A stretch of 64,000 nt of DNA, from NCBI GenBank assembly GCA_040902265.1, contig JBBDXQ010000108.1, positions 1,706 through 65,705 on the forward strand, in the 5' to 3' direction. This stretch comes from Anaerolineales bacterium (lineage in GTDB: Bacteria; Chloroflexota; Anaerolineae; Anaerolineales; UBA11579). Shown piece by piece: positions 38,383 to 63,917 of this stretch. The notes beneath the pieces were generated by a model that saw nothing but the letters and a program-made list of their open reading frames with translations, was not told the origin of the DNA and did not search any database. Made by a program: the position numbers and the translations under genes. How positions within the stretch are numbered: position 1 is the stretch's first letter; the number at the start of each line of letters is the position of its first letter.

Positions 38383-38384
38383 GC

Positions 38385-39449: not shown

Positions 39450-39462
39450 CCCTGCCAGCCAA

Positions 39463-40530: not shown

Positions 40531-40531
40531 C

Positions 40532-50195: not shown

Positions 50196-51953
<1,758 letters not shown>

Positions 51954-51979: not shown

Positions 51980-52801
51980 ATGGCAAACCTGGCGAAGTCC
52001 TTTGACTTGAGTGGCCGCGTCGCCGTGGTGACCGGTGGCGCCGGTCTGCTCGGACGCCAGTTTTGCACCACTTTAGTTGAGGCAGGCGCTGCTGTGCTTG
52101 TGGCCGATGTGAATAGCGCGTCGGCTGAGCAAGTCGCCAAAGACCTTATCGCCGCCGGGCACACCGCCGCAGCCCACCCAACAGACGTTGGCGATCTGGC
52201 TTCAGTGCAGGCCATGGCTGTGGCTGCCATCCAGCTGTTTGGCCGCCTCGACATCCTGGTGAACAGCGCCGCACTCGATCCCAAATTCGACCAGGCCAGC
52301 CAAGCTAAACACAACACCGCTTTCGAAGAGTATCCGCTCCTGGCTTGGGAAGCTGCCATGAGGGTCAACCTTACCGGTGCATTCCTTTGCTCTCAGGTTG
52401 CAATCCGCCCCATGCTTGAGCAAGGCAGCGGGGTCATTGTTAACATCTGCTCCACGTACGGTCTTGGGGGTCCGGACCAACGCATTTATCAGAAACCCGG
52501 AATCGCCGCACAATACAAACCGGTCGACTATACCGTGACCAAGGCCGGTATCCTCGGCCTGACAAAATACCTGGCTACCTATTATGGCGACAAGAACATT
52601 CGCGTCAATGCGCTCACCCCTGGCGGCGTCTTCAACGCCCACGATGAGGAATTTACCAAAGCCTATTCTGCTCGCACGGTGTTGGGCCGCATGGCCGAGC
52701 CTTCTGAGATGAACGGCGCTCTGCTATTCCTGGCTTCCGATGCGTCTAGCTACATGACAGGAGCTAACCTGGTAGTTGACGGCGGATGGACGGCGTGGTG
52801 A
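51980..52801 (+). CDS. classical short-chain dehydrogenase/reductase (FabG/gluconate-5-dehydrogenase-like)
   Basis: 273-aa ORF. 'VAVVTGGAGLLGRQF', 'NSAA', 'YTVTKAGILGLTKYLA' (YxxxK), 'IRVNALTPGGV'. Confidence 0.85.
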   Translation: MANLAKSFDLSGRVAVVTGGAGLLGRQFCTTLVEAGAAVLVADVNSASAEQVAKDLIAAGHTAAAHPTDVGDLASVQAMAVAAIQLFGRLDILVNSAALDPKFDQASQAKHNTAFEEYPLLAWEAAMRVNLTGAFLCSQVAIRPMLEQGSGVIVNICSTYGLGGPDQRIYQKPGIAAQYKPVDYTVTKAGILGLTKYLATYYGDKNIRVNALTPGGVFNAHDEEFTKAYSARTVLGRMAEPSEMNGALLFLASDASSYMTGANLVVDGGWTAW

Positions 52802-54036
52802 GCCCCAAACAACCCGAGGTGCTTGCCATCGTGCCGGCTCGGGGCGGCTCGAAAAGCATCCCGCGCAAGAACGCGCAGCCCTTTCTTGGCCATCCACTGG
52901 TAGCTTTCAGCATTGCCGCCGGGCTCCAGTCAAAAAGCGTCGGCAGGGTCATTGTCTCGACAGATGACGAAGCGTTGGCAGAACTTGCCCGCCATTACGG
53001 CGCGGAAACGCCATTCTTGCGGCCTACCGAGTATGCCCAGGACGACTCGCCGGATCTGCCGGCTTTCCAGCATGCACTGCGCTGGCTGGCCAAGAATGAA
53101 AAGTACCGGCCTGATATCGTGGTTCAATTGCGCCCTACCTCGCCATTGCGTCCCAGAGACCTGGTGGACCGCTCCGTAGAGACATTGTTAGCGCATAATG
53201 AAGCGGATTCCGTGCGCGGCGTTGCTCCCGCCGGACAGAATCCCTACAAGATGTGGACTATTTCAAAAGAAGGTGGCATGCAGCCCCTGTTGAAAACAAG
53301 GGGACTGGCTGAACCCTACAATGCTCCGCGCCAGGCTTTGCCGCTTACCTATTGGCAGACCGGTCATATCGATGCGATACGCACACACACCATATTGAAG
53401 AAGGGCAGCATGAGCGGAGAAGTGATTTGGCCGGTACTGATCGATCCGCGTTACGCGGTGGATATCGATACACTAAACGATTGGCGTCGCGCTGAATGGC
53501 TGGCTGCCTCCGGCGAACTCGACATGGTCCGCCCGGGTTCCGCCCCGCGTCCACTGCCCAGCCAGGTCAAATTACTCGTCATGGATTTTGACGGGGTGCT
53601 TACGGATAACCGCGTCTGGGTTAATGAAGTAGGCAACGAGCAAGTGGCTGCCAACCGCAGTGATGGCCTGGGGGTCAAAATGCTGCTCAAAGCCGGAGTG
53701 ACTGTGCTGGTCATCTCGATGGAGGAGAATCCCGTCGTGGCTCGCCGCTGTGAGAAATTGGGCATTTCTTATAAAAAAGGGATTGCCAATAAAGGCCCGC
53801 TCTTGCAAGAGATCCTGGCCGAGCGTTCTGTTTCCGCGAATGAAGCTGTTTTCCTTGGCAACGATATTAACGACCTGCCATGTTTCCCGCTGGTGGCCTG
53901 CGGCGTTGCGGTTGCGGATGCGCATCCCGAAGTGATCCGAAAAGCGGATCTTGTGCTGGGCAAGCGCGGCGGTCAGGGCGCCGTGCGCGAACTGTGCGAC
54001 TTGATCCTGGCGAATAACTCCAAGGAGATTAAATGA
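52786..54036 (+). CDS. fusion protein: acylneuraminate-type cytidylyltransferase (N-terminal) plus KdsC/YrbI-type HAD sugar-phosphate phosphatase (C-terminal)
   Basis: 416-aa ORF. N-terminal 'LAIVPARGGSKSIPRKN', 'VIVSTDD', 'VVQLRPTSPLR'. C-terminal 'LLVMDFDGVLTDNRVWV', 'DGLGVKML', 'VFLGNDINDLP', 'GGQGAVRELCDLIL'. Confidence 0.8.
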   Translation: MDGVVSPKQPEVLAIVPARGGSKSIPRKNAQPFLGHPLVAFSIAAGLQSKSVGRVIVSTDDEALAELARHYGAETPFLRPTEYAQDDSPDLPAFQHALRWLAKNEKYRPDIVVQLRPTSPLRPRDLVDRSVETLLAHNEADSVRGVAPAGQNPYKMWTISKEGGMQPLLKTRGLAEPYNAPRQALPLTYWQTGHIDAIRTHTILKKGSMSGEVIWPVLIDPRYAVDIDTLNDWRRAEWLAASGELDMVRPGSAPRPLPSQVKLLVMDFDGVLTDNRVWVNEVGNEQVAANRSDGLGVKMLLKAGVTVLVISMEENPVVARRCEKLGISYKKGIANKGPLLQEILAERSVSANEAVFLGNDINDLPCFPLVACGVAVADAHPEVIRKADLVLGKRGGQGAVRELCDLILANNSKEIK

Positions 54037-54905
54037 CGCGTGAGCTACGTATTGGAAAGCAGATGGTCGGGGATGGGCATCCCACCTACATTGTGGGCGA
54101 GATCGGCATCAATCACAATGGCGATATTGAAATAGCCAAGCAGTTGATCGACCTGGCCAAATGGGCAGGTGCAAATGCGGTCAAATTTCAAAAACGCACT
54201 CCCGAACTGGCCGTCCCCGCCGACCAGAAAGATAAAATGCGCGAGACACCCTGGGGATACATCAGCTATTTGGAGTATCGTCACAAAGTGGAGTTTGGCG
54301 AAACGCAATACCGCCAGATCGATGCCCACTGCAAGCAGAAGGGATTGGATTGGTTTGTCTCCGTTTGGGATGAGGGGTCTGTGGACTTCATGGAAGCCTT
54401 TGACACCCCATGCTACAAAGTACCTTCCGCATCGCTGACGGATAGCAGTTTGCTTAAACACCTAAGGAGGACGGGCAAACCAATCGTAGTATCCACCGGC
54501 ATGTCCACCATGGAACAGATCAGAGCCGCTGTGGATCTGGTCGGATTGGATAACCTGATGCTGACTCATACCACCAGCACCTACCCCTGTGAACCGGAGG
54601 AGCTGAATTTAAGAATGATCACCACCTTGCGCCAGGCCTTCCCAGTACCAGTTGGCTATTCTGGGCACGAAGTCGGTCTGGTCATCTCGGCTGTGGCAGT
54701 GGCTATGGGCGCTTGCCTGGTGGAACGTCATATCACTCTGGACCGAGCCATGTGGGGCAGCGACCAGGCAGCTTCAGTGGAGCCAGGCGGTTTACAGCGC
54801 CTGGTGAAGTACATCCGCGTCACGGAGCAAGCCTTGGGGGATGGGGAAAAACGTGTCTACGATAGCGAAAAGCCTTCGCTACAAAAATTACGGCGAGTCC
54901 AATAA
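54033..54905 (+). CDS. NeuB-family ulosonic-acid synthase lacking the SAF domain
   Basis: 290-aa ORF with an ATGA overlap. 'PTYIVGEIGINHNGDIEIAKQLIDLAKWAGANAVKFQKR', 'YKVPSASLTD', 'GYSGHEVG', 'LVERHITLDR'. It ends about 60 aa short of the SAF-containing paralogue at 38385. Confidence 0.8.
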   Translation: MTRELRIGKQMVGDGHPTYIVGEIGINHNGDIEIAKQLIDLAKWAGANAVKFQKRTPELAVPADQKDKMRETPWGYISYLEYRHKVEFGETQYRQIDAHCKQKGLDWFVSVWDEGSVDFMEAFDTPCYKVPSASLTDSSLLKHLRRTGKPIVVSTGMSTMEQIRAAVDLVGLDNLMLTHTTSTYPCEPEELNLRMITTLRQAFPVPVGYSGHEVGLVISAVAVAMGACLVERHITLDRAMWGSDQAASVEPGGLQRLVKYIRVTEQALGDGEKRVYDSEKPSLQKLRRVQ

Positions 54906-54936
54906 CGCATGAGCGTCCAGCGGGCGCACAGTTAAC

Positions 54937-56526
54937 TTGTTCGAGCGCATAACTTCCAAGATCCTAGGGCTGGTAAGCAATCGGCGCATTGCGGAGTTGG
55001 CCCGCGCCGTAGCCCAACGAGCCGCCCCGACTCCCGTCGCGCCAGCGGTCATCTTCTTCAACGCTTCTGCACGGCTCGGCCACCTCAGCCAGAATGCCGC
55101 CTTTTCACTTCTGGCTGCCTGGGGCTTGCGTCTGGCGGGCGTGCGCGTAATCCACTTCGTTTGCAACCGCGGCATGAGCCGCTGCGTGTTGGGCACCAAT
55201 CCTGACGACCCAACCCAGCCGCCTCCCTGCGCGGTTTGCGTGGCGCAATCCCAGCGATTGTATGCCCATGCGGATTCCCGTTGGTTCGAGTTTAGAAAAG
55301 AAGCCCAATTAGCCGAAGAATTGAAGGACCTGTCCCTTGCAGACCTCAAAAAATTCGCTCACAATGGATGGCCGTTGGGGGAGCTAGTGCTGCCCGGGCT
55401 TCGCTGGACTTTACGGCGCCATCACCTAGTAAATGACGAAGCCACGCGGTACCTCTATAAGCAATACATACTCTCCGCCTTCAATGTGGGTAGGGAATTC
55501 GAGAAACTGCTCGATGAGGAAGAGCCTCCACTCGCGGTAGTCCTTTTCAATGGCCTTATGTATCCCGAAGCTATGGCTGGCTGGCTGGCGCAACAGCGCA
55601 GCTTGCGCGTCATCACACATGAAGTAGCGCTGCTGCCGTTGTCTGCTTTTTTCACTGAAGGGCAGGCTACTGCATATCCAATGGAGATCCCTGCCGATTT
55701 CCACCTATCTCCAGAACAAAACGATCAGCTAGATCACTACCTTGAGGCTCGCCTTCAAGGCCAATTCACGATGGCTGGCATTCAGTTCTGGCCGGAGATG
55801 CAAGCACCGGACGCCAACTTTCTTACTAAAGCTGCCCAATTCAAAAAGATCGTGCCGGTGTTCACCAATGTGATCTTCGACACCAGCCAGGTGCACGCCA
55901 ATACGCTCTTTCCCCATATGTTCGCCTGGTTGGATGAAGTGCGCGAACTAATTAAGACGCATCCCGACACCCTTTTCGTAATCCGCGCCCATCCTGATGA
56001 AATGCGGCCTGGCACCCGCAAGCAAAGCCGCGAGAGTGTTGGCGGTTGGGTGCAACACAATGGTTTGGAAAAGCAGGCCAACGTGACCTTTGTGGGCTCG
56101 GATGTTTATCTAAGCTCTTACGCACTGATCCAACGTGCTCACTTTGTGATGGTTTACAACTCTTCGATCGGCTTGGAAGCCTCGATCATGAATAAGCCGG
56201 TGTTGTGCGCCGGCGCAGCGCGCTACACTTCTTATCCAACTGTGTTTTACCCCAACTCCACCGCCGCGTATCTAAAAACAGCTCAAGAGTTCTTGCGAGC
56301 GGAAAAAATGGAGCAGCCCCCCGAGTTTGTTGCAGAGGCGCGCCGCGTCCTGTATTTTCAGCTCTTTCGAACCGCCTTGCCTTTCAATGGTTATCTGCAG
56401 GCGCATACTCGTATGGGCTATGTCCATCTCAATTCATTCTCTTTCGACGATCTTCTTCCACAAAATTCGTCTGCCATGCGTGCCATATATGCCGGTGTTG
56501 TAAACGGCGACTCTTTTCTGGTATAA
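54937..56526 (+). CDS. GT-B-like protein, capsule-synthesis (KpsC/KpsS, GT107-like) layout; paralogue of 33104-34693
   Basis: 529-aa ORF with an apparent TTG start and no in-frame ATG for 78 codons. See the collinear blocks listed for 33104. A Cys cluster 'FVCNRGMSRCVLG...PPCAVCVAQ' near the N-terminus is absent from the paralogue. Confidence 0.5.
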   Translation: MFERITSKILGLVSNRRIAELARAVAQRAAPTPVAPAVIFFNASARLGHLSQNAAFSLLAAWGLRLAGVRVIHFVCNRGMSRCVLGTNPDDPTQPPPCAVCVAQSQRLYAHADSRWFEFRKEAQLAEELKDLSLADLKKFAHNGWPLGELVLPGLRWTLRRHHLVNDEATRYLYKQYILSAFNVGREFEKLLDEEEPPLAVVLFNGLMYPEAMAGWLAQQRSLRVITHEVALLPLSAFFTEGQATAYPMEIPADFHLSPEQNDQLDHYLEARLQGQFTMAGIQFWPEMQAPDANFLTKAAQFKKIVPVFTNVIFDTSQVHANTLFPHMFAWLDEVRELIKTHPDTLFVIRAHPDEMRPGTRKQSRESVGGWVQHNGLEKQANVTFVGSDVYLSSYALIQRAHFVMVYNSSIGLEASIMNKPVLCAGAARYTSYPTVFYPNSTAAYLKTAQEFLRAEKMEQPPEFVAEARRVLYFQLFRTALPFNGYLQAHTRMGYVHLNSFSFDDLLPQNSSAMRAIYAGVVNGDSFLV

Positions 56527-56533: not shown

Positions 56534-56791
56534 ATGGTCTCAAAAACAGAGGAGAGCGGTCTGTTGGAGGAATTGCGCAGCCTGATGGCTGAAATTTTCC
56601 ATGTGGACGCAGACCAGATCGGTGTTGAAGCTCAATTGGGTGAATTGCCGCAATGGGATTCCTTGACGCATATGGACTTAATGGTTGCGCTTGAATCGGC
56701 TTTTGGTATAGAGATCACTGCTGAAACTATTAGCCAGCTCACCAGCCTTCCGTCAATCTGGGCTTACATTCAAAGTCAGCAGCATGCCTGA
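56534..56791 (+). CDS. acyl/aminoacyl carrier protein
   Basis: 85-aa ORF. 'LGELPQWDSLTHMDLMVALESAFGIEI' is a DSL phosphopantetheine-attachment context in a four-helix ACP-sized protein. Confidence 0.75.
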   Translation: MVSKTEESGLLEELRSLMAEIFHVDADQIGVEAQLGELPQWDSLTHMDLMVALESAFGIEITAETISQLTSLPSIWAYIQSQQHA

Positions 56792-57971
56792 GCACAGCTT
56801 CTCTGCACAGGCAGCTGTCCCGGCACACCTGCGCTCCCAGGTGCAAGCCAAATTGGCCTTTGTCGATGAGAATATCGCAGGCGCTTCCATCTCTGCTGAT
56901 GGCAGCACGGTTAGCTTGCAATTGCGATCCATGGTTCCCAAACAGATCCTTGGGGAGCTGGAAGCCAAAGTGCAAAATGTGGTGACTGAAATGACTAAGG
57001 GGGCAGTGCCGCCCAAGATAGAGGTTCTGGAAGATCACCTGCAGCGCAGTCTCCCTTACGCCATCGACCCCATGCCAGGCTTGCTGTCCAGCGGCGAGGT
57101 CAGCCGCGAGCATACCGGCATATATAGCCTCGGCGCCAATCTCACGCGCCTTATTGCGGTATTTGAGTCTTATTTTTTGGAGCTGGCAACTGAATTTTCA
57201 GCCCTTCCGCAACGTTTTCCGGCGCTCATTTCTGCCGAAAAATTGGGGCGCGTCAATTATTTTCGTGCCTTCCCTCATTCGCTCACCTTCGCCACCCACT
57301 TACGTGAAGACCTGCATGTGATCAACGACTTTGCTGAACATGCCAAATACGAAATCGAAGGATTGAACGCACCCCCAGCCTCCTTCTCCAAGATCCAGGC
57401 GCTGCTTTCCCCCGCGGTGTGTTATCACCTCTATTTCAGCCTGGCTGACAAGCCCCTGCCGGGGGGCCAATTAGCTGCCACGGCGGTGGGACATTGCTTT
57501 CGCTACGAATCCAGCAACTTGAACACCTTGGAGCGCATGTGGGATTTCACCATGCGCGAGATCATATTCGTGGGACCGCCGGATTTCGTGCTGCAAAACC
57601 GAGAGCGTGCTCGCCAGCAGGTCGCTCTGTACCTTGAACGTCTTGGCTTGGCCTATAAAGTAGAAAGCGCCAATGATCCTTTCTTTGTCGGCGAATTTCG
57701 CAGGCAAGCTGCCTTCCAGAATGCATTTCAGCTCAAATATGAAATTCGCGCCAGCCTGCCCTTTAAGCATGACACCTTGGCGGTGGGCTCCTACAACTAT
57801 CACCAGGATTTCTTTGGTCGCCACCTTGGCATCACGCTGCCGGATGGCAAACCGGCCCACACCGGCTGCGTCGCATTCGGTTTGGAGCGTCTGGCCTATG
57901 CCTTCGTTTGCCAATTCGGTTTAGAGCCGGCTGGCTGGCCTGCCCACGTTCGTGAGGCATGGAATGGCTAA
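56784..57971 (+). CDS. amino acid--[acyl-carrier-protein] ligase (class-II aaRS / atypical SerRS catalytic-core homologue)
   Basis: 395-aa ORF overlapping the ACP gene by 8 nt. 'GHCFRYES' (motif-2-like fRxE), 'MREIIFVG', 'HTGCVAFGLERLAYAF' (motif-3-like). Candidate Zn ligands are Cys ('SPAVCYHLY'), Glu ('FRYE') and Cys ('HTGC'). No tRNA-binding N-terminal coiled coil is evident. Confidence 0.7.
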   Translation: MPEHSFSAQAAVPAHLRSQVQAKLAFVDENIAGASISADGSTVSLQLRSMVPKQILGELEAKVQNVVTEMTKGAVPPKIEVLEDHLQRSLPYAIDPMPGLLSSGEVSREHTGIYSLGANLTRLIAVFESYFLELATEFSALPQRFPALISAEKLGRVNYFRAFPHSLTFATHLREDLHVINDFAEHAKYEIEGLNAPPASFSKIQALLSPAVCYHLYFSLADKPLPGGQLAATAVGHCFRYESSNLNTLERMWDFTMREIIFVGPPDFVLQNRERARQQVALYLERLGLAYKVESANDPFFVGEFRRQAAFQNAFQLKYEIRASLPFKHDTLAVGSYNYHQDFFGRHLGITLPDGKPAHTGCVAFGLERLAYAFVCQFGLEPAGWPAHVREAWNG

Positions 57972-58440
57972 GCTCTCTGTGCGCCAGGCAGAGGCAGAAG
58001 ACTTAGCGGCAGTTGCCGCGGCTTGGACCAAACTGCAAGTGTTACATCGCAGTCTGGGGTTGGCTTTCACTTTTCCTCCAGATGCGGCCGAACAATGGCT
58101 GGCTTCCTTTCAGCGCACCTTGGGTCGCTTCAGCTTCTTATGGGTGATCGGACCTTTAGGACAACCGGACGCTTTTTTATTAGCCCGCATCAAACAAAGC
58201 CCTGCTTTTCTGGGTGGTGTCCAGGTCGGGGAGATCAGCGATCTCTATGTAGCCAATAGCCTGCGCGGTTCCGGCGCGGGGACCGCGTTGGCCAAAACGG
58301 CCATGCGTAAATTCCAGGAGCTCGGCTTGCATTCAGTGGAGGTGCAGGTGCTAGCTGGCAACGAGTCGGGGTTGGCTTTCTGGGTCAAGCTGGGTTTCGC
58401 GCAAGACCTTTCCCTGGTGCGTAAAGTGTTGAAGGCCTGA
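57964..58440 (+). CDS. GNAT-family N-acyltransferase
   Basis: ATG 57964 overlaps the ligase stop. 'ISDLYVANSLRGSGAGTALAKTAMRKFQELGLHSVEVQVLAGNESGLAFWVKLGF' is the acyl-CoA-binding R/Q-x-x-G-x-G/A motif. Confidence 0.75.
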   Translation: MAKLSVRQAEAEDLAAVAAAWTKLQVLHRSLGLAFTFPPDAAEQWLASFQRTLGRFSFLWVIGPLGQPDAFLLARIKQSPAFLGGVQVGEISDLYVANSLRGSGAGTALAKTAMRKFQELGLHSVEVQVLAGNESGLAFWVKLGFAQDLSLVRKVLKA

Positions 58441-58441
58441 G

Positions 58442-59221
58442 ATGCCGTTTCCAGAATTGACTCATTCCGAATTAATCCAGACGCTGGAATCAGTGGGCGT
58501 GCTACCCGGCGACGGGGTGCTGGTGCATTCGGCTTTGCAATTGCTGGGCAAGCCAAACGGTGGCCTGCAAATGGTGTTCGATGCCATCGTCGAGGTGATC
58601 GGACCCACAGGCACACTGGCGGTGCCGACTTTCCCCTTCACCTTCAGCCGCGGTCTGGATTACGATCCGCTTACCACACCTTCGCAAGGCATGGGTGCTT
58701 TCTCGGAGTTCGTCCGCCAAGTTCCGCAGGCGCTCCGCACCACCCATCCTATGCAGCCTGTTGCTCTGGTCGGTGGGCATGCTGCCGATCTGGCCCAACG
58801 CGATACGCTATCCGCGTTCGATGACGGCTCGGCGTTCGACCGCATGTTGCAATTGGGCTTCAAGATGCTGTTACTAGGCGCGGATATCCAGGCCGCTTCT
58901 ATCGTTCATTACTCCGAGCAGCGTGCTGCAGTCCCCTACCGCTATTGGAAAGATTTCACCGGGCGCGTAAAGGTGGGCGATGCATGGAAAACGAAAACCT
59001 ACCGCATGTTCGTGCGCGACCTGGATCTGGATGCGCAACTCAAGCTCACGCCCATTCAGAGGACATTAGAAGCTGAAGGCTTGTGGCGTACCACGAAGCT
59101 GAACTTTGGCGAAGTAGCCTGTTGCCCCCTTACCGCATTTGTGGCAGCGGCCGACGAATTACTGGCTGCCAACCCTTGGGTGCTGGTGACCAACAGACCA
59201 CGGCAGGTGGCAGACAGCTGA
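58442..59221 (+). CDS. AAC(3)-family (Antibiotic_NAT fold) N-acyltransferase homologue
   Basis: 259-aa ORF. 'LPGDGVLVHSALQLLGKPNGGLQMVFDAIVEVIGPTGTLAVPTF', 'MGAFSEF', 'RTTHPMQPVALVG', 'SIVHYSEQ' are typical aminoglycoside 3-N-acetyltransferase-family blocks. Confidence 0.8.
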   Translation: MPFPELTHSELIQTLESVGVLPGDGVLVHSALQLLGKPNGGLQMVFDAIVEVIGPTGTLAVPTFPFTFSRGLDYDPLTTPSQGMGAFSEFVRQVPQALRTTHPMQPVALVGGHAADLAQRDTLSAFDDGSAFDRMLQLGFKMLLLGADIQAASIVHYSEQRAAVPYRYWKDFTGRVKVGDAWKTKTYRMFVRDLDLDAQLKLTPIQRTLEAEGLWRTTKLNFGEVACCPLTAFVAAADELLAANPWVLVTNRPRQVADS

Positions 59222-59222
59222 G

Positions 59223-60539
59223 ATGTCCACCATGATGGAGTTGATCGAGGAACTCTGGTTCCTCAAACGCGACCTCGTCTCTGAAGGGTACGACCGCGCC
59301 TTGGAACGCCTGGCCGCTGAGCTTCCCATGACCATCCACGAGTTCGCCTCGGGGGCAAATGTTTGGACCTGGACAATTCCAGACGCCTGGACTTGCCACG
59401 AAGCTTATTTGGAAACATTGGACGGCAAACGCCTGATCGACGTGGCAGATCACCCCCTCCATGTCGTTTCGTATTCCCTGCCCTTCGAGGGCGAAGTCAG
59501 TCGGCAAGAATTGCTGCAGCACTTACATGTGCATGCGCATCTTCCGGATGCCATTCCGTATGTATTCAAGGTCTACCAGCGTGACTGGGGTCTGTGCGCC
59601 TCGCAAAAGCTCCGTGATTCTCTCAAGGACGAGCGCTACCGTGTAGTTATCCGCACGGAATTCACCCCCGGTGTTCTCAAGGTCGGTGAGGTGCTGGTCT
59701 CCGGCGAGCGTGAAGAGTCTTTCATGGTCGCCGCTCATCTAGACCACCCAGCCATGGTCAACGATGACCTTTCCGGAGTTGTGGTTGAATTGGAAGCCGC
59801 TCGGCAACTTCTGGCCGGTCCCAAACCGTATTACAGCTATCGATTTCTCTTTCTGCCAGAGACGCTGGGGTCCATCGCCTATCTCAGCAGCCACGAACAC
59901 CTGATCCCCGGCATGCTTGGCGGTCTCTTCCTCGAAATGCTGGGCAATGATGCTGTGCACGCCTTGCAGACTTCATTTCTGGCTGGGAGCGCGGCTGACA
60001 TCTGCCTGGTGGCAGCCCTACGTGGTGTCGAGCCAGGCGCTTACGTGGGCGCTTACCGTACCATCATTGATAACGACGAACGCCAATTTAATGCCCCTGG
60101 AGTGCGGGTACCCATGCTTTCGCTTTCTCGCGTTGTGGATGCCTACCTACCAGCCTCGCGTTTTTACCCTTACCCTGAGTACCATTCCAGCCTGGACTCG
60201 CCCGCCATCATCTCTACTGAGCGCTTGGAATCTTCTGTTCAGCTGGTGCTCGAACTCCTCTCCGCATTTGATCGTAATCGCTACATCGTCAACCGCTTCA
60301 AAGGCGAGGTCTTTGCCACTGGGTATGGCCTCTGGGTGGACTATAGGACGGATTCTGCCGCTCACAAACTCCGTTTCGAAATCATGGATCGCTGCGATGG
60401 CACCCGCCGTCCAGCCGATATCGCTCATGAACTTGGTTTGTCTTTTCAGCAAGTTTGGGAGCTTATAGAAATCTTGCTGGAGAAAGATCTGGTATTTCTC
60501 AGTCAGTCCCCGCAGCCGACTGACCCGCATCTCGCCTAA
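59223..60539 (+). CDS. DUF4910/DUF2172 aminopeptidase-like (M28-like) protein with a C-terminal winged helix
   Basis: 438-aa ORF. 'IHEFASGANVWTWTIPDAWTCHEAYLETLDGKRLIDVADHPLHVVSYSLPFEG..ELLQHLH..PDAIPYVFKVYQRDWGLC' fits the family pattern as I recall it. The C-terminal 'RRPADIAHELGLSFQQVWELIEILLEKDLVFL' is wHTH-like. Confidence 0.7.
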   Translation: MSTMMELIEELWFLKRDLVSEGYDRALERLAAELPMTIHEFASGANVWTWTIPDAWTCHEAYLETLDGKRLIDVADHPLHVVSYSLPFEGEVSRQELLQHLHVHAHLPDAIPYVFKVYQRDWGLCASQKLRDSLKDERYRVVIRTEFTPGVLKVGEVLVSGEREESFMVAAHLDHPAMVNDDLSGVVVELEAARQLLAGPKPYYSYRFLFLPETLGSIAYLSSHEHLIPGMLGGLFLEMLGNDAVHALQTSFLAGSAADICLVAALRGVEPGAYVGAYRTIIDNDERQFNAPGVRVPMLSLSRVVDAYLPASRFYPYPEYHSSLDSPAIISTERLESSVQLVLELLSAFDRNRYIVNRFKGEVFATGYGLWVDYRTDSAAHKLRFEIMDRCDGTRRPADIAHELGLSFQQVWELIEILLEKDLVFLSQSPQPTDPHLA

Positions 60540-60541: not shown

Positions 60542-61402
60542 ATGTCGCTGATCGCCGAAGTTAAACAACCTTTCAAACTGGTGCGCTGGCGCCTGCGGCG
60601 CGCCCAGGCCGCCCGCCGTTGGGGAGCAGCGCAATTGCAGCGCACACCCGCCGTCATCGGCAACGCAATTCCCAAGTCCGGTTCCCATCTGCTAATCCAG
60701 GTCCTGCTGGGCCTCACCCGCCTGGGTCCCTTTGTGGATCCTGGTATGCCCCCAATCAACCGCTCGGCCAGCAATCGCAATCTACCTCAAGCCAGCATCG
60801 TGGCGAACTTGGGTCGTCTGCGCCCGGGGGATATCACCTATTGCTATCTGCATGCTCGCCAACCCTTCCTGGCTGAACTAGCTCGACCAGGCAAGGCTGC
60901 CTTCTTTATTTATCGTGACCCGCGCGACATGATCGTCTCTCAAGTATTTTATGCTACCAATATGCACCCCCATCATGGTATGCATGACTATTACAACAAA
61001 CTATCCACCATGGAAGAACGTCTTAACGCCGCCATCCAGGGAGTGCACAGACCTGGTGCGCAACTCTCTTCCATCCGTGCCAAATTTGAGTCTTACCTAG
61101 GCTGGCTGGATCAACCCGAAGTACTTGGTTTGCGCTACGAAGACCTGGTCCGCGAGCGCTCAGCTACTGTGGGCAGTATCCTCGACCATTTGGCAGGGCG
61201 TGGCCTTCAACTGCAGTTGTCGCGCGCCGAAGCTATTGCCACCCTAGATGCATCCGTTTCGCCTGCCGCCTCAGGTACCTTTCGCCGCGGCCAGCCCGGC
61301 GAATGGCGCCAGCACTTCACTGCCAACAATATTCGCCTATTCAAAGTGTCCGCCGGCGATTTGCTGCAGCGCCTTGGTTACGAGCAAAGTGATCGATGGT
61401 GA
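60542..61402 (+). CDS. sulfotransferase (Sulfotransfer_1-like), tandem paralogue 1
   Basis: 286-aa ORF. 'IGNAIPKSGSHLLIQVL' (5'-PSB), 'FFIYRDPRDMIVSQVFY' (3'-PB), 'LRYEDLV', 'FRRGQPGEWRQHFT'. Confidence 0.8.
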   Translation: MSLIAEVKQPFKLVRWRLRRAQAARRWGAAQLQRTPAVIGNAIPKSGSHLLIQVLLGLTRLGPFVDPGMPPINRSASNRNLPQASIVANLGRLRPGDITYCYLHARQPFLAELARPGKAAFFIYRDPRDMIVSQVFYATNMHPHHGMHDYYNKLSTMEERLNAAIQGVHRPGAQLSSIRAKFESYLGWLDQPEVLGLRYEDLVRERSATVGSILDHLAGRGLQLQLSRAEAIATLDASVSPAASGTFRRGQPGEWRQHFTANNIRLFKVSAGDLLQRLGYEQSDRW

Positions 61403-62253
61403 GCCCAGGATTGATGACGCGGCTTGCTCGCCGCAGCATCCGACGCAGGAGCGCCCAGCAAGCCTATCCTCAGATCCCGATGTCCCAAATGCCCATCCTG
61501 TTTGGGAATTCTTTTCCCAAGAGCGGCACGCACTTGCTTACCCAGATCCTGGCGGGCTTCACCCGGCTGGGTCCGGTGGTTGATAGTGGCCTACAGGCGG
61601 TACTAACCTTTGAAGGCGAAAGTGGCCAGCCTCGCTCGCTGAGCGCCATCCTCGCTGACCTGGCGCGTTTACAATCCGGTGATATCGGCTATGGACATTT
61701 ACATGCCGTTCCCGCAGTAGTCCAGGCTTTATGCCGTGCTGGCGTAGCGCCTTATTTCATCTACCGCGATCCGCGAGACGTGGTGGTTTCACACGTCTTT
61801 TATGTCACCGAAATTAATAACCATCACATCCATCACGATTACTACGTCAACGACTTGAAGGATTTCGACCAACGGCTGGAAGTTAGTATTCTGGGCCGGC
61901 CGGAATTGGAACCTCCATTCCCGGATATCCGCGCCCGTTTTGAACCTTATTTACCCTGGCTGGGTCGCTCTGAAGTACTCTCTTTGCGCTATGAGGATCT
62001 GCTAGAGAATACCTTCGCTGAACTGGGTAGCATCCTGGACCATGCAGGGAGCCAAGGTTTTGTTCATCCTTTCGAACGCTCCGAGGCCATCGGCATCCTT
62101 GCCCAAAGTATCAAGCCTGAAGAATCGCCCACTTTTCGCAAGGGCCAGCCCGGTGGTTGGCAGCAGCACTTCACACCCCGTCATAAAGCTCTATTCAAGC
62201 AAGTCACTGGCGACCTGTTGATGCGCTTGGGTTACCAGAAACAGAACTGGTAA
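61396..62253 (+). CDS. sulfotransferase (Sulfotransfer_1-like), tandem paralogue 2
   Basis: 285-aa ORF overlapping paralogue 1 by 7 nt. 'FGNSFPKSGTHLLTQIL', 'YFIYRDPRDVVVSHVFY', 'LRYEDLL', 'FRKGQPGGWQQHFT'. Confidence 0.8.
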   Translation: MVSPGLMTRLARRSIRRRSAQQAYPQIPMSQMPILFGNSFPKSGTHLLTQILAGFTRLGPVVDSGLQAVLTFEGESGQPRSLSAILADLARLQSGDIGYGHLHAVPAVVQALCRAGVAPYFIYRDPRDVVVSHVFYVTEINNHHIHHDYYVNDLKDFDQRLEVSILGRPELEPPFPDIRARFEPYLPWLGRSEVLSLRYEDLLENTFAELGSILDHAGSQGFVHPFERSEAIGILAQSIKPEESPTFRKGQPGGWQQHFTPRHKALFKQVTGDLLMRLGYQKQNW

Positions 62254-62262
62254 GATTTACCC

Positions 62263-63237
62263 ATGCCCGCCAAGCAGGCCAATAAACCTCTAGTCTCCAT
62301 CATTATCCGCGCCTTCAATGAGCAAAAACATCTCGGCAAGCTGCTGGAAGTAATTAAGCAACAAACTTTTCGCCGCTACGAGATCGTCCTGGTTGACTCA
62401 GGGTCCACCGACCGTACTCTGGCAATTGCTGCCAGCTATCCGGTCAAGATCCTGCATATCAAGCCCGGGGATTTCACCTTTGGCCGCTCACTGAACCTCG
62501 GCTTGCGTGCTGCCCGCGGCCGCCTGGTCGTCGTGGCCAGTGCCCATGTGCAACCCTTGAGCCGGGATTGGCTCAAGCAGCTTGTTGCCCCTTTCGAAGA
62601 CCCCAAAGTAGCCGTGGCCTATGGTAAACAGCGGGGCGGGGCTGTCAGCCGCTTCTCAGAAACTCAACACTTCCTACGCTGGTTTCCCCAGCGCTCCAAC
62701 TTGGACCAACCCAGCGCCTACTGCAACAACGCCAACCTGGCATTGCGTCGCTCCCTGTGGAAGAAGCAGCCCTTCAACGAGACCCTAACCGGACTTGAGG
62801 ATCTGGCCTGGGCTTCGGTCTGGCGCGAGCGGGGTTACAAGGTAGCTTACGTGGCTGAAGCTGGGGTGACTCATATCCATGAGGAAAGCTCCGCCCAGAT
62901 CATCAACCGGCACCGCCGGGAGGCGATCGCACTTAAACGCATCCTGCCATCCAGCCGCTTTACCTTGTGGCATTTTGTCAGCCTGTTCCTGCATTCCACT
63001 TATTCCGATTTTGGCGCGGCCCTCCGCCAGCGGGCGTTTTTCCGCCAGGTTCTCGGGATCATCTCTTTTCGTTTCCTTCAATACCTGGGTACCTACCGTG
63101 GTTACCGCGACGCAGTGGCTCCCAGTGCCAAACTGAAGCAGGTCTTCTACTATCCACCAGGATCCCTTGAAGACCGTTCGCAGCAAACCAACACCAAGTC
63201 CATTAAGGAACAGAGCCGCAAGTCGGCAAAAGCATGA
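62263..63237 (+). CDS. glycosyltransferase, GT2 family
   Basis: 324-aa ORF. 'VSIIIRAFNEQKHLGKLLEVIKQQTFRRYEIVLVDSGSTDRT', 'GLEDLAWA'. Confidence 0.85.
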   Translation: MPAKQANKPLVSIIIRAFNEQKHLGKLLEVIKQQTFRRYEIVLVDSGSTDRTLAIAASYPVKILHIKPGDFTFGRSLNLGLRAARGRLVVVASAHVQPLSRDWLKQLVAPFEDPKVAVAYGKQRGGAVSRFSETQHFLRWFPQRSNLDQPSAYCNNANLALRRSLWKKQPFNETLTGLEDLAWASVWRERGYKVAYVAEAGVTHIHEESSAQIINRHRREAIALKRILPSSRFTLWHFVSLFLHSTYSDFGAALRQRAFFRQVLGIISFRFLQYLGTYRGYRDAVAPSAKLKQVFYYPPGSLEDRSQQTNTKSIKEQSRKSAKA

Positions 63238-63917
63238 TCGCCAACCCTCCTCGCATTGTCGCCCTGGTACCTATGCGCGATCGTTCTGAGCGCGTGGTCG
63301 GCAAAAACTATCGTCCACTGGCAGGCTGGCCGCTGTTTCACCACATCCTGCGAGCCTTGCAAGCCTGCCCAGAAATCGCTGATATCGCGGTGGATACGGA
63401 CAGCCCGACCATCAAGCAGGGATTGGCTGACCATTTCCCCCATGTGTTGGTGCTAGACCGGCCTGAGTCTCTGCGCGGTGGCGAAGTTCCCATGAATGCA
63501 GTCTTGTTGCACGACACGGAACTGGTACCTGCCGACTTCTATTTGCAAACCCACAGCACAAACCCGCTGCTTCGCCCCCAAACCATCAGCGCCGCAATCC
63601 TGGCATTCGTTGCCAATACCGCCGCCAAGGATTCGCTATTCGGTGTCACCGAGATGCATTCCCGCCTCTATGATCAAGAGGGTCGCGCCATCAACCACAA
63701 TCCGCGCGAACTGCTGCGCACCCAGGATCTGCCTCCGGTGTATGAGGAGAATTCCTGCCTCTATATTTTCACCCGGGACAATTTGCAAAAAAATGGCCAT
63801 CGCATTGGACAATCTCCACTCTTGTTCCCTGTGCCGCGCGACGAGGCTTGGGATATCGACGAGGAACTAGATTTTCTCCTGGTGGATTTTCTCATGCGCC
63901 AGCGTCCCGCAGTCTAA
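63234..63917 (+). CDS. acylneuraminate-cytidylyltransferase-family protein (third CMP-sugar synthetase candidate)
   Basis: 227-aa ORF with an ATGA overlap. 'IVALVPMRDRSERVVGKNYRPLAGWPLFHHIL', 'IAVDTDS', 'YLQTHSTNPLLRP'. Confidence 0.75.
   Translation: MIANPPRIVALVPMRDRSERVVGKNYRPLAGWPLFHHILRALQACPEIADIAVDTDSPTIKQGLADHFPHVLVLDRPESLRGGEVPMNAVLLHDTELVPADFYLQTHSTNPLLRPQTISAAILAFVANTAAKDSLFGVTEMHSRLYDQEGRAINHNPRELLRTQDLPPVYEENSCLYIFTRDNLQKNGHRIGQSPLLFPVPRDEAWDIDEELDFLLVDFLMRQRPAV

What the first reader, a model, noticed from the sequence alone, without database searches (positions are those of the whole stretch)
56534..60539. Carrier protein + aaRS-like amino acid:[carrier protein] ligase + three acyl-transfer/peptidase-like genes inside a glycan locus: candidate sugar aminoacylation system
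Five tightly coupled genes make up this module.
- An 85-aa carrier protein with a 'WDSLTHMDL' Ser context.
- A 395-aa class-II aaRS catalytic-core homologue. It carries 'GHCFRYES', 'GCVAFGLERLAYAF' and a Cys/Glu/Cys triad like the Zn site of methanogen-type SerRS.
- A GNAT, an AAC(3)-fold N-acyltransferase homologue, and a DUF4910/M28-like protein with a wHTH tail.

Stand-alone aa:CP ligases are known biochemically to load small amino acids such as Gly or Ala onto a dedicated carrier protein. To my knowledge the downstream fate of that aminoacyl-carrier protein is poorly defined.

AAC(3)-fold enzymes N-acylate amines on amino-sugar scaffolds. The context here (amino-sugar and ulosonic-acid genes, sulfotransferases) suggests the aminoacyl-S-carrier protein donates an N-aminoacyl decoration to an amino sugar or nonulosonic acid. 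This would be a tRNA- and NRPS-independent route.
Basis: partly seen in the sequence, partly recalled or inferred. Interest (0 to 1): 0.8.

Follow-up and report, generated by a model that had tools for sequence, protein, structure and literature searches.

The report
Aminoacyl-carrier-protein module for sugar acylation
A tRNA-synthetase-like enzyme and its own small carrier protein sit next to an aminoglycoside-acetyltransferase-like enzyme inside a sialic-acid-type sugar operon of a Chloroflexota bacterium, which points to a tRNA-free way of hanging an amino acid on a cell-surface sugar and suggests a biological job for an enzyme family whose role has been unknown since 2010.

Summary
The five ORFs are real, tightly coupled and correctly described. 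The window comes from an Anaerolineales MAG.

- **Ligase.** The 395-aa protein belongs to the amino acid:[carrier protein] ligase family. Its closest solved structure is the Bradyrhizobium Gly:CP ligase Bll0957. The Cys/Glu/Cys zinc triad is invariant, and no recognisable tRNA-binding domain is present.
- **Conservation in Chloroflexota (80 species loci).** Among loci with enough flank, the carrier protein (76/76) and the AAC(3)-like gene (69/69) always flank the ligase. DUF4910 does so in 62/63 and the GNAT in 65/75.
- **Conservation in distant homologues (31-42% identity).** Ligase, carrier protein and AAC(3)-like gene stay linked in rearranged order. They usually sit beside NeuB and cytidylyltransferase genes.
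- **Other family members.** These pair with MBOAT, BtrH/DUF1839 or hexapeptide acyltransferases instead.
- **Closest known analogue.** The DUF4910 + AAC(3)-like + ACP set resembles the Campylobacter Cj1295-Cj1302 locus. There Cj1295 is required for the N-(di-O-methylglyceroyl) form of pseudaminic acid, and an FkbH-domain gene lies in the same locus.

**Verdict.** This is an aminoacyl-S-carrier-protein donor system feeding an AAC(3)-fold acyltransferase in a nonulosonic-acid pathway. That reading is well supported by comparative context but unproven biochemically. The amino acid, the acceptor atom, and the GNAT and DUF4910 roles remain open. I rate it a new variant of a known kind.

The parts
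56534..56791 (+). Dedicated carrier protein (85 aa). The predicted phosphopantetheine site is Ser43 in 'WDSLTH'.
   Evidence: PF00550 E=6.9e-9. The sequence aligns to canonical ACPs with the DSL serine in register. A CP gene lies directly upstream of the ligase in 76/76 Chloroflexota loci. Small CPs with the motif WDS[LI]xH sit next to the distant ligase homologues in L086, L087, L089 and L090; the CP next to the L088 ligase has 'LDSFG' instead.
56784..57971 (+). Amino acid:[carrier protein] ligase (395 aa). It has a class-II aaRS catalytic core of the methanogen-SerRS lineage, a Zn triad (C213/E242/C362) and an N-terminal ~85-aa ferredoxin-like domain.
   Evidence: NF005479 4e-50, which is below the equivalog cut-off. 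PDB Bll0957 1.3e-41. The AF2 model has pLDDT 95.5. Foldseek top hit is 4h2s_B at E=3e-27, TM 0.87. C213, R240, E242, C362 and R369 are invariant. The N-terminal domain has no tRNA-binding match.
57952..58440 (+). GNAT acyltransferase (162 aa) of unresolved role. It could be a sugar N-acetyltransferase or an N-alpha-acetylase of the aminoacyl group.
   Evidence: PF00583 3.7e-11. There is a weak PseH hit, 2.4e-4. A GNAT is present in 65/75 Chloroflexota loci. It is not similar to the GNATs next to, or fused to, distant ligases.
58442..59221 (+). AAC(3)-fold acyltransferase (259 aa). It is the predicted transferase that moves the aminoacyl group from the carrier-protein thioester to a sugar amine.
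   Evidence: PF02522 1.5e-39. It falls below all NCBIfam AAC(3) resistance cut-offs. Best PDB hit is FrbF (3sma), 4.6e-20. It is present in 69/69 Chloroflexota loci. It is also adjacent to the ligase in L087, L089, the P0200 locus and L094-L097.
59223..60539 (+). DUF4910/DUF2172 M28-like mono-zinc protein with a C-terminal wHTH. It is a homologue of CA_C2195, which belongs to the same family as C. jejuni Cj1295.
   Evidence: DUF4910 2.3e-59, DUF2172 1.8e-29. 3k9t 1.4e-57, with the Zn ligands H189/D195/H324 of CA_C2195 conserved in the alignment. Present in 62/63 Chloroflexota loci. Also present in L087 and L095.
51980..56526 (+). The nonulosonic-acid sub-operon immediately upstream. It encodes an SDR, a PseF-like cytidylyltransferase fused to a KdsC/Kdn-9-P-phosphatase-like HAD domain, a NeuB synthase, and a 529-aa Capsule_synth/BFO_1060-like transferase.
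   Evidence: Within 10 kb upstream of the ligase, 58/67 loci have NeuB, 60/67 have Capsule_synth and 54/67 have the CMP-transferase.
60542..63917 (+). Downstream co-transcribed tailoring and transfer genes: two sulfotransferases, a GT2 glycosyltransferase and a second PseF-like cytidylyltransferase.
   Evidence: They are syntenic in most Chloroflexota loci. A sulfotransferase also follows ligase-AAC3-CP in the locus of P0200, which is 31% identical to the window ligase.

Best explanation
The module makes an aminoacyl thioester on a dedicated carrier protein and uses it as the acyl donor to decorate a nonulosonic acid, or its nucleotide-sugar precursor, that the surrounding operon builds.

**Step 1 (inferred from characterised homologues).** The Zn-dependent aaRS-like ligase activates a small alpha-amino acid with ATP. 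The family precedent is Gly or Ala; Ser is not excluded. It then transfers the amino acid to the phosphopantetheine thiol on Ser43 of the 85-aa carrier protein.

**Step 2 (inferred from gene linkage and fusions).** The AAC(3)-fold enzyme binds the pantetheine arm in place of CoA. It transfers the aminoacyl group to an amino group of the sugar, giving an N-aminoacyl substituent.

**Step 3 (speculative).** The mono-zinc M28-like DUF4910 protein prepares or processes the acceptor. The most economical version is removal of an existing N-acetyl group to expose the amine, because no sugar aminotransferase lies near the module.

**Step 4 (speculative).** The GNAT either N-acetylates another sugar amine or caps the alpha-amine of the aminoacyl group.

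The product would then be CMP-activated, transferred by the Capsule_synth/BFO_1060-like enzyme, and the glycan sulfated.
For: **Ligase identity**
- Sequence and fold match Bll0957.
- The Zn triad and the motif-2 and motif-3 arginines are invariant.
- The CP carries the DSL serine and overlaps the ligase start by 8 nt.

**Linkage**
- In Chloroflexota loci: CP 76/76, AAC3 69/69, DUF4910 62/63.
- A second clade is only 32-34% identical to the window ligase, and its members are 43-47% identical to the query P0165. It keeps PseG-like - ligase - AAC3::VOC - CP - DUF4910 beside NeuB.
- L089 has CP-ligase-AAC3 between two NeuB genes.
- The P0200 locus has ligase-AAC3::VOC-CP-sulfotransferase.

**Pattern across the ligase family**
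- The ligase + CP pair is always next to some acyltransferase. That partner is AAC3, MBOAT, BtrH_N or DUF1839, or hexapeptide.
- One homologue is fused to BtrH_N and one to a GNAT.

**AAC3-like enzymes are linked to carrier-protein systems elsewhere**
- CA_C2199 is described as an 'aminosugar N-acetyltransferase + HAD phosphatase' fusion and sits beside acpA.
- FkbH-annotated proteins cluster with the AAC3-like neighbours of DUF4910 (PMC4000134 Table 2 and supplement).
- cj1302 in the Campylobacter locus is an FkbH-domain gene (PMC7099621).
- Cj1295 is required for 5-N-(di-O-methylglyceroyl)-Pse (PMC3068675).

**Chemical plausibility**
- N-aminoacyl sugars exist, including Leg5Ac7(D-Ala) in E. 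coli O161 (PMC10609480, PMC7685785).
Against: - There is no biochemical datum for any of these five proteins.
- No DegT-type aminotransferase lies within 10 kb of the ligase in any of the 90 loci searched. The only one in the window is 47 kb away. The acceptor amine is therefore not identified.
- The fused cytidylyltransferase-KdsC/Kdn-9-P-phosphatase-like protein would fit a Kdn-type sugar. That sugar has no nitrogen at all.
- The 80 Chloroflexota loci are one syntenic lineage, so their counts are not independent events.
- The ligase scores below the NCBIfam equivalog cut-off (170 vs 357 bits). It also carries an N-terminal domain that Bll0957 lacks.
- The GNAT has no detectable orthologue next to distant ligases.
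- DUF4910 lacks the canonical M28 catalytic Asp and Glu (PMC4000134).
Confidence: 0.6

Rival explanations
1. The aminoacyl-S-carrier protein is made as above, but the amino acid is attached as an ester to a hydroxyl of the nonulosonic acid or glycan. This would be a cytoplasmic analogue of D-alanylation. It would not be an amide on a sugar amine.
For: - No aminotransferase lies near the module.
- The cytidylyltransferase is fused to a KdsC/Kdn-9-P-phosphatase-like domain. That fits a nitrogen-free Kdn-type sugar.
- Other ligase homologues are linked to MBOAT proteins, the fold of DltB O-acyltransferases.
Against: - No MBOAT or DltD-like gene was found among the window ORFs scanned.
- To my knowledge, characterised AAC(3)-fold enzymes, including FrbF, are N-acyltransferases; FrbF and AAC(3) enzymes are the best PDB hits.
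- In the Campylobacter analogue, the product that requires Cj1295 is an N-acyl amide (PMC3068675).
- A PseG-like gene precedes the ligase in the second clade. That fits a di-amino Pse/Leg-type route.
Confidence: 0.15
2. The ligase loads something other than a standard alpha-amino acid onto the carrier protein, for example a D-amino acid, a beta-amino acid or a hydroxy acid. The decoration would then be a non-aminoacyl acyl group, as in the glyceroyl-type systems.
For: - The ligase is below the equivalog cut-off. Its identity to Bll0957 is only about 32%.
- It carries an extra N-terminal domain of unknown role.
- Homologous AAC3/DUF4910/ACP modules elsewhere are associated with a non-amino acyl group and contain FkbH-type genes.
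Against: - The Cys/Glu/Cys zinc site is invariant across the family. In this lineage that site binds the substrate alpha-amino group; this is established for methanogen SerRS and Bll0957 and is stated here from my own knowledge.
- Some AAC3 partners are fused to a methylmalonyl-CoA-epimerase-like domain. This suggests that D-configuration, where needed, is made after loading.
Confidence: 0.1
3. The carrier-protein module is unrelated to the glycan. It makes a small soluble metabolite, as the rhizobial, Bacillus and Streptomyces homologues appear to do. Its position in the glycan locus would be inherited synteny.
For: - Bll0957-type and some 395-aa-type ligases lie in non-glycan, natural-product-like clusters. 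These contain acyl-CoA dehydrogenase, DUF1839/BtrH_N and KAS III genes.
- The 80 Chloroflexota loci are one lineage.
Against: - Three separate clades at 31-42% identity keep ligase-CP-AAC3 beside NeuB, PseG-like, cytidylyltransferase or sulfotransferase genes, in different gene orders.
- The module is embedded between the NeuB/transferase genes and the sulfotransferases, with gaps of 1-7 nt.
- It contains no thioesterase, condensation or ketosynthase gene.
Confidence: 0.05

Closest known systems
Amino acid:[carrier protein] ligases Bll0957/Bll6282 (Gly) of Bradyrhizobium and Atu2573 (Ala) of Agrobacterium (Mocibob et al. 2010, 2013; PDB 3mey, 4h2s)
   Same: - Same catalytic core and fold (E=1.3e-41; Foldseek TM 0.87, 32% identity).
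- Same Zn triad and the same motif-2 and motif-3 arginines.
- A dedicated adjacent carrier protein.
   Different: - The protein is 395 aa, with an extra ~85-aa ferredoxin-like N-terminal domain. This longer form is in fact the commoner architecture among representatives.
- It scores below the NCBIfam equivalog cut-off.
- The genomic partners differ. Rhizobial genes sit with an acyl-CoA-dehydrogenase-like gene and DUF1839. This one sits with AAC(3)-like, DUF4910 and NeuB genes.
- The biological role of the characterised enzymes is still reported as unknown (PMC9437257).
Campylobacter jejuni NCTC 11168 flagellin-glycan locus Cj1295-Cj1302, associated with 5-N-(2,3-di-O-methylglyceroyl)-pseudaminic acid, and the Clostridium acetobutylicum CA_C2195 neighbourhood
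   Same: - DUF4910/M28-like protein, one or two AAC(3)-like acyltransferases and an acyl carrier protein, all inside a NeuB/cytidylyltransferase locus (PMC4000134). The ACP is documented for CA_C2198 in C. acetobutylicum; Cj1299 as an ACP is from my memory.
- Genetic proof that the DUF4910 homologue Cj1295 is needed for an N-acyl nonulosonic acid (PMC3068675).
   Different: - The locus carries an FkbH-domain gene (cj1302; PMC7099621). C. acetobutylicum has an ATP-grasp ligase. Neither is an aaRS-like ligase. That FkbH would be the carrier-protein loader is my inference.
- The acyl group there is a hydroxy acid derivative, not an amino acid.
- No enzyme of that module has been characterised in vitro in the literature I could reach. 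A 2026 paper still calls cj1295 a putative transferase.
Butirosin side-chain pathway BtrI/BtrJ/BtrH/BtrG (described from my own knowledge, not tested here)
   Same: An amino-acid-derived acyl group is built on a free-standing carrier protein. It is transferred to an amine of an amino sugar without tRNA or NRPS, and a deprotection step follows. Some ligase homologues are fused to, or adjacent to, BtrH_N-domain proteins.
   Different: - The loader there is an ATP-grasp enzyme, and the transferase is BtrH-fold rather than AAC(3)-fold.
- The acceptor is an aminoglycoside, not a nonulosonic acid.
- No BtrH_N or ATP-grasp gene was found among the window ORFs scanned.
E. coli O161 O-antigen sugar Leg5Ac7(D-Ala)
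   Same: It is a chemically established N-aminoacyl nonulosonic acid (PMC10609480).
   Different: Its gene cluster is described as lea1-lea7 with a proposed 'alanyltransferase' Lea3. The review text I searched contains no occurrence of 'carrier protein' (PMC7685785). I could not inspect the sequences.
Dlt (DltA/DltC/DltB/DltD) and Vibrio AlmEFG aminoacylation of envelope polymers (described from my own knowledge)
   Same: An amino acid is carried as a thioester on a small carrier protein and delivered to a cell-envelope glycopolymer or lipid. Relatives of this ligase sit next to MBOAT genes.
   Different: - The loader there is an ANL-superfamily adenylating enzyme, not a class-II aaRS core.
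- The transfer there is an O-acylation performed by membrane proteins.
- No MBOAT is present in this window.

Membership tests
Amino acid:[carrier protein] ligase (Bll0957 type) | Class-II aaRS catalytic core of the methanogen-type SerRS lineage, with the motif-2 and motif-3 arginines | tested here: met
   PDB Bll0957 E=1.3e-41 and mSerRS 1e-18 / 1e-14. Foldseek 4h2s_B E=3e-27, TM 0.87. R240 and R369 are invariant.
Amino acid:[carrier protein] ligase (Bll0957 type) | Zn-binding Cys/Glu/Cys triad in the amino-acid pocket | tested here: met
   C213, E242 and C362 align with the CY / CFRrE / TGC positions of Bll0957. They are invariant in 42 homologues.
Amino acid:[carrier protein] ligase (Bll0957 type) | Loss of the tRNA-binding N-terminal domain | tested here: met
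   Only ~85 aa precede the core. Modelled alone (pLDDT 91.9) they form a ferredoxin-like fold. The best PDB hit is an HMA/CopZ-like domain at E=6e-3. No tRNA-binding domain is hit. Whether this small domain could still touch RNA cannot be excluded in silico.
Amino acid:[carrier protein] ligase (Bll0957 type) | Dedicated adjacent carrier protein with a modifiable serine | tested here: met
   The 85-aa PP-binding protein has a DSL serine and overlaps the ligase start by 8 nt. Present in 76/76 related loci.
Amino acid:[carrier protein] ligase (Bll0957 type) | Score above the curated NCBIfam equivalog cut-off (NF005479) | tested here: not met
   170.5 bits against a cut-off of 357. It is a distinct subfamily, not an equivalog of the characterised enzymes.
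Amino acid:[carrier protein] ligase (Bll0957 type) | ATP-dependent aminoacylation of the holo-carrier protein | not testable with these tools
   This needs ATP-PPi exchange and intact-mass MS.
Methanogen-type seryl-tRNA synthetase | Full-length enzyme with the ~160-aa N-terminal tRNA-binding domain, scoring above the equivalog cut-off | tested here: not met
   PRK00960 gives 117.5 bits against 611, and TIGR00415 gives 73.5 against 489.55. The aligned region starts at model position 148.
AAC(3) aminoglycoside 3-N-acetyltransferase (resistance enzymes) | Antibiotic_NAT fold | tested here: met
   PF02522 136.4 bits against a cut-off of 25, covering nearly the whole profile. PDB FrbF and AAC(3) hits range from 5e-20 to 1e-9.
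AAC(3) aminoglycoside 3-N-acetyltransferase (resistance enzymes) | Score above the curated AAC(3) subfamily cut-offs | tested here: not met
   The best score is 101.5 bits against 270 (NF033082). All others are further below their cut-offs. It should not be filed as a resistance gene.
DUF4910 / CA_C2195 / Cj1295 family | DUF4910 M28-like domain with an inserted DUF2172 domain | tested here: met
   200.7 and 102.4 bits. 3k9t E=1.4e-57 over residues 5-420.
DUF4910 / CA_C2195 / Cj1295 family | Single-Zn ligand set His/Asp/His, with the canonical M28 catalytic Asp and Glu replaced | tested here: met
   In the alignment, 'HLDHPAMVNDD', 'PETLGS' and 'YHSSLD' match CA_C2195 H189, D195, P225 and H324 as described in PMC4000134. 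The Ser191 position is Ala here, a variant the paper reports.
DUF4910 / CA_C2195 / Cj1295 family | C-terminal circularly permuted wHTH (HTH_47) | tested here: inconclusive
   HTH_47 scores 17 bits against a cut-off of 27.1. However, the 3k9t alignment extends through chain residue 428.
Campylobacter-type ACP-dependent N-acyl nonulosonic-acid module | DUF4910 + AAC(3)-like + ACP inside a NeuB/cytidylyltransferase locus | tested here: met
   Literature description.
Campylobacter-type ACP-dependent N-acyl nonulosonic-acid module | An FkbH-domain gene in the locus (presumed carrier-protein loader) | tested here: not met
   No FkbH-type gene lies in or beside the module; the only HAD-type domain nearby is the KdsC-like half of the cytidylyltransferase fusion. 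The carrier-protein loader is the aaRS-like ligase instead.
Dlt-type aminoacylation system | MBOAT (DltB) and DltD partners | tested here: not met
   None was found among the window ORFs scanned. They are present only next to other ligase homologues.

The most novel reading that the evidence does not exclude
aaRS-derived amino acid:[carrier protein] ligases are the general donors of a widespread, tRNA- and NRPS-independent system for aminoacylating envelope glycans. The same ligase/carrier pair is plugged into interchangeable acyltransferase folds: AAC(3)-like for nonulosonic acids, and MBOAT or hexapeptide enzymes for other envelope targets. On this reading, Anaerolineae display sulfated N-aminoacyl nonulosonic acids made this way. 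That would give the orphan aa:CP ligase family its first biological function.
Probability: 0.45. Interest if true: 0.8.

Novelty: new variant of a known kind. Interest (0 to 1): 0.66.

Why it matters
**An orphan enzyme family.** aa:CP ligases were shown in 2010-2013 to aminoacylate carrier proteins. A 2022 review still states that the biological role of this reaction is unknown (PMC9437257).

**A testable downstream partner.** Here the ligase and its carrier are locked to an AAC(3)-fold acyltransferase in sialic-acid-type loci, in three separate clades of the 395-aa-type ligase. This gives a concrete consumer and acceptor class to test.

**A gap in glycobiology.** N-aminoacyl and other unusual N-acyl groups on nonulosonic acids and amino sugars are common in surface antigens. 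The enzymes that install them are largely unknown; the Tannerella paper says so explicitly (PMC5378307).

**Functions for uncharacterised proteins.** If confirmed, the module would assign functions to DUF4910/Cj1295 and to the non-resistance AAC(3)-like proteins. It would also offer a small, portable toolkit for glyco-engineering.

Tried and rejected
1. **Broad locus scans failed.** Scans for distant ligase loci with wide alignments found no conserved 7-10-column stretch. The genome scan therefore returned only Chloroflexota. I compensated with single look-ups of distant representatives and a metagenome scan seeded with P0165.
2. **GNAT as a conserved partner: rejected.** The GNAT next to the Desulfocurvus ligase and the GNAT fused to the Chondromyces ligase show no meaningful similarity to the window GNAT.
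3. **The N-terminal domain as a remnant tRNA-binding domain: not supported.** The sequence alignment to M. barkeri SerRS starts at residue 143 of that enzyme. The isolated domain hits only generic ferredoxin-like folds.
4. **Amino-acid specificity: abandoned.** S336/N338 align with the 'N-V-S' stretch of M. barkeri SerRS.
5. **Acceptor amine: none found nearby.** I looked for a dedicated aminotransferase near the module. None was found in any of 90 loci.
6. **E. coli O161 cluster: not tested.** I wanted to check it for a ligase/CP pair.
7. **Missing records.** The original 2010 PNAS paper is not held. The contig of the ligase::GNAT fusion is not on record.
8. **A scanning error.** In the GNAT-less variant locus L027 I scanned the wrong reading frame for the DUF4910-like ORF. 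That variant is characterised only by tblastn (30% identity).

Full report
**What is there.** The window is from an Anaerolineales (Chloroflexota) MAG. The 395-aa protein is 100% identical to 'MAG: hypothetical protein WD740_08135 [Anaerolineales bacterium]'. Apart from two minus-strand ORFs, all large ORFs I mapped lie on the + strand and form one glycan locus. It contains the following:
- about fifteen glycosyltransferases;
- Wzm/Wzt ABC export genes (30918-33102);
- a LegC/PseC-like aminotransferase (8403-9518);
- PseB (36440-37447, above the curated cut-off);
- two NeuB synthases (38385-39449 and 54033-54905);
- three CTP_transf_3 cytidylyltransferases;
- two Capsule_synth/BFO_1060-like proteins;
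- four sulfotransferases;
- a bifunctional ATP-sulfurylase/APS kinase.

The five ORFs of the finding lie at exactly the stated coordinates. Their junctions are 8-nt and 20-nt overlaps and two 1-nt gaps, so they are almost certainly co-translated.

**The five proteins**
1. *Carrier protein.* The 85-aa protein is a PP-binding carrier (6.9e-9). Its Ser43 in 'WDSL' aligns with the DSL serine of canonical ACPs.
2. *Ligase.* The 395-aa protein hits the NCBIfam model for amino acid--[ACP] ligase (4e-50) and methanogen-type SerRS models (6e-34). It is below both cut-offs.
   - In the PDB its best relative is the Bradyrhizobium Gly:CP ligase Bll0957 (1.3e-41), followed by M. kandleri and M. barkeri SerRS.
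   - An AlphaFold model built on 42 homologues is very confident (pLDDT 95.5). It superposes on the Bll0957-carrier-protein complex with TM 0.87.
   - C213, E242 and C362 align with the zinc ligands. Together with the motif-2 and motif-3 arginines they are invariant in 42 sequences down to 27% identity.
   - The extra N-terminal ~85 residues form a small ferredoxin-like domain. It has no significant structural neighbour and no resemblance to a tRNA-binding domain.
   - Most family representatives are 385-400 aa and align from about residue 10. The long form is therefore the rule and Bll0957 the truncated exception.
3. *GNAT.* It is generic, with a faint PseH-like signal.
4. *AAC(3)-like protein.* The 259-aa protein is a full-length Antibiotic_NAT domain (1.5e-39). 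It is far below every AAC(3) resistance cut-off. Its best solved relative is FrbF.
5. *DUF4910 protein.* The 438-aa protein is a clear homologue of CA_C2195 (3k9t, 1.4e-57). It keeps that protein's His/Asp/His single-zinc site, and the canonical M28 catalytic residues are replaced.

**Is the association more than local synteny?** A scan of one genome per species found 180 genomes with a relative. The best 80 are all Chloroflexota at 61-82% identity. Counting only loci with enough flanking DNA:

| Gene | Loci with it |
|---|---|
| Carrier protein directly upstream | 76/76 |
| AAC(3)-like downstream | 69/69 |
| DUF4910 | 62/63 (56 at >=50% identity) |
| GNAT | 65/75 |
| NeuB | 58/67 |
| Capsule_synth-like transferase | 60/67 |

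These loci are one lineage, so I looked further out.
- *A second clade.* It is 32-34% identical to the window ligase, and its members are 43-47% identical to the query P0165. It has cytidylyltransferase - pyruvyltransferase - NeuB - PseG-like - ligase - AAC3 fused to a methylmalonyl-CoA-epimerase-like VOC domain - carrier protein - DUF4910. Each gene is present wherever the contig reaches it.
- *A 42%-identical homologue.* It lies in carrier-ligase-AAC3 order between two NeuB genes, without DUF4910 or GNAT.
- *A 31%-identical homologue.* It shows ligase - AAC3::VOC - carrier - sulfotransferase.

The gene order differs among these clades. The linkage of ligase, carrier and AAC(3)-like enzyme is therefore maintained by selection, and the usual setting is a nonulosonic-acid locus.

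**The family-wide pattern.** Other members of the ligase family keep the carrier protein but swap the neighbour.
- MBOAT, the fold of the Dlt O-acyltransferase: a 48%-identical homologue and Desulfocurvus.
- A hexapeptide-repeat acyltransferase in another glycan locus.
- BtrH_N/DUF1839 plus acyl-CoA-dehydrogenase-like genes, in rhizobial plasmids, a Bacillus mycoides plasmid and soil metagenomes.

One homologue is fused to BtrH_N and one to a GNAT. In every locus where a partner could be assigned, that partner is an acyltransferase. This is what one expects if aminoacyl-S-carrier protein is an acyl donor. Here the acyltransferase is the AAC(3)-fold enzyme.

**Link to known biology**
- Das et al. 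(PMC4000134) solved CA_C2195. They noted that DUF4910 genes are embedded in NeuB/nucleotidyltransferase operons, together with 'aminosugar N-acetyltransferases' and acyl carrier proteins. These acetyltransferases are the AAC(3)-like cluster that includes Cj1296 and a 263-aa C. jejuni NCTC 11168 'N-acetyltransferase' that I take to be Cj1298 by GI order. That cluster also contains FkbH-annotated proteins, and CA_C2199 is an acetyltransferase + HAD fusion next to acpA. The authors suggested a transacylation onto an amino sugar.
- In C. jejuni NCTC 11168, Cj1295 (the DUF4910 homologue) is required for 5-N-(2,3-di-O-methylglyceroyl)-pseudaminic acid. The authors proposed that it removes the 5-N-acetyl group so that the new acyl group can be installed (PMC3068675).
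- cj1302 in the same locus carries an FkbH domain (PMC7099621).
- A 2026 study still lists cj1295 as a putative transferase.

The window module is thus the same chassis, DUF4910 + AAC(3)-like + carrier protein in a NeuB locus. The difference is that an aaRS-derived ligase is present where the Campylobacter locus has an FkbH-domain gene.

N-aminoacyl sugars are chemically well known. Examples are Leg5Ac7(D-Ala) in E. coli O161, N-acetylglycyl-Qui4N and N-acetylseryl-Qui3N (PMC10609480). The O161 cluster is described with only a proposed 'alanyltransferase' (PMC7685785). From my own knowledge, the butirosin pathway is the best-characterised precedent for moving an amino-acid-derived acyl group from a free carrier protein to an amino-sugar amine. 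There BtrJ loads BtrI and BtrH transfers the acyl group.

**Proposed mechanism and its weak points**
- *Step 1 (ligase + holo-carrier gives aminoacyl-S-carrier).* This rests on strong homology to characterised enzymes.
- *Step 2 (the AAC(3)-fold enzyme transfers the aminoacyl group to a sugar amine).* This rests on linkage, fusions and the Campylobacter genetics.
- *The acceptor is not identified.* No DegT-type aminotransferase lies within 10 kb of the ligase in any of 90 loci. The adjacent cytidylyltransferase is fused to a KdsC/Kdn-9-P-phosphatase-like domain. That fits a synthase route through a 9-phosphate (Neu5Ac- or Kdn-type).
- *If the sugar is Neu5Ac-like,* the DUF4910 protein acting as an N-deacetylase would supply the amine. 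This is the most economical reading, but it is speculative. It is weakly supported by one observation: the one glycan locus that lacks DUF4910 (L089) has its own aminotransferase domain.
- *If the sugar is Kdn-like,* an O-ester becomes more likely.
- *The GNAT role is open.* It could be a sugar N-acetylase or a cap for the aminoacyl alpha-amine. It is absent from 10 of the 75 Chloroflexota loci that could be scored and from the distant glycan-type loci (L087, L089, L090 and the P0200 locus).
- *The amino acid is unknown.* Family precedent is Gly or Ala.

**Novelty and score.** I found no paper connecting aa:CP ligases with glycan or nonulosonic-acid modification. The library lacks most subscription journals, so absence is not proof. 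A 2022 review states that the role of carrier-protein aminoacylation is unknown. The chemistry proposed has clear precedents: ACP-dependent N-acyl tailoring of nonulosonic acids and aminoglycosides. This is therefore a new variant of a known kind, not a new category. Its value is that it turns a fifteen-year-old orphan activity into a specific experiment and offers candidate enzymes for installing aminoacyl groups on surface sugars. Interest 0.66.

Noticed in passing
L087:10182-11402; also L094-L097 and the locus of P0200: In a distant clade the AAC(3)-like partner of the ligase is fused to a VOC/Glyoxalase_4 domain. That domain matches methylmalonyl-CoA epimerase (TIGR03081, 2e-14). It could epimerise the aminoacyl thioester on the carrier protein from L to D. 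That would fit D-alanyl groups such as the one on Leg in E. coli O161. A separate glyoxalase gene (CA_C2192) also sits in the C. acetobutylicum DUF4910 locus.
   Followed up: partly
L086:9001-12976 and L088:8751-12115: Two ligase homologues (48% and 29% identical) are followed by a carrier protein and an MBOAT protein. In Desulfocurvus a GNAT and a UbiA prenyltransferase are also present. This looks like a Dlt-like envelope aminoacylation system in which an aaRS-like ligase replaces DltA.
   Followed up: partly
L092:4494-7823; L100-L104; L085; L091: The classical short Bll0957-type ligases sit in a different conserved set: ACP, an acyl-CoA-dehydrogenase-like gene, the ligase and DUF1839. Some 395-aa-type ligases in Bacillus and in a soil-metagenome contig lie in natural-product-like clusters with BtrH_N, KAS III-like and xanthine-dehydrogenase-like genes. 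One is a BtrH_N::ligase fusion (P0179).
   Followed up: partly
window 56784-57050: The ligase has a confident ~85-aa ferredoxin-like N-terminal domain that Bll0957 lacks. It is present in most family representatives and has no informative structural neighbour. Its function is unknown; it might dock the partner acyltransferase or help dimerisation.
   Followed up: yes
L021, L027, L039, L043, L055, L061, L065: Seven Chloroflexota loci lack the GNAT and at the same time carry only a divergent (~30% identical) DUF4910-like gene. GNAT presence and DUF4910 type therefore appear to co-vary.
   Followed up: partly
window 36440-41290: There is a second nonulosonic-acid gene set. It comprises PseB (above the curated cut-off), an RmlD-like reductase in place of an aminotransferase, NeuB with a SAF domain, a GT1 glycosyltransferase and a KdsB-like cytidylyltransferase. 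This suggests a 9-deoxy, mono-amino nonulosonic acid rather than Pse or Leg.
   Followed up: no
window 46615-49852 (- strand), 14591-16666, 24209-26818, 41287-42195: Several large ORFs have no Pfam hit: 537 and 544 aa (the only minus-strand genes found in the locus), 691 aa, 869 aa and 302 aa. A similar 550-aa minus-strand gene without a Pfam hit occupies the same position in L001.
   Followed up: no
window 35547-36443, 44603-45625, 50196-51953, 60542-62253: Four sulfotransferases and a dedicated ATP-sulfurylase/APS-kinase imply a heavily sulfated glycan. A sulfotransferase also directly follows ligase-AAC3-CP in the unrelated locus of P0200. Sulfation may therefore target the modified sugar or the aminoacyl group itself.
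   Followed up: no
window 16647-19298 and 26844-28409; downstream of the module in L001 and L003: Large PMT_2 (ArnT/protein-O-mannosyltransferase-like) proteins occur in the window. An MptE-like (Maf/DUF115-type) gene occurs in the relatives. These hint that the glycan may be attached to a protein or lipid carrier at the cell surface.
   Followed up: no
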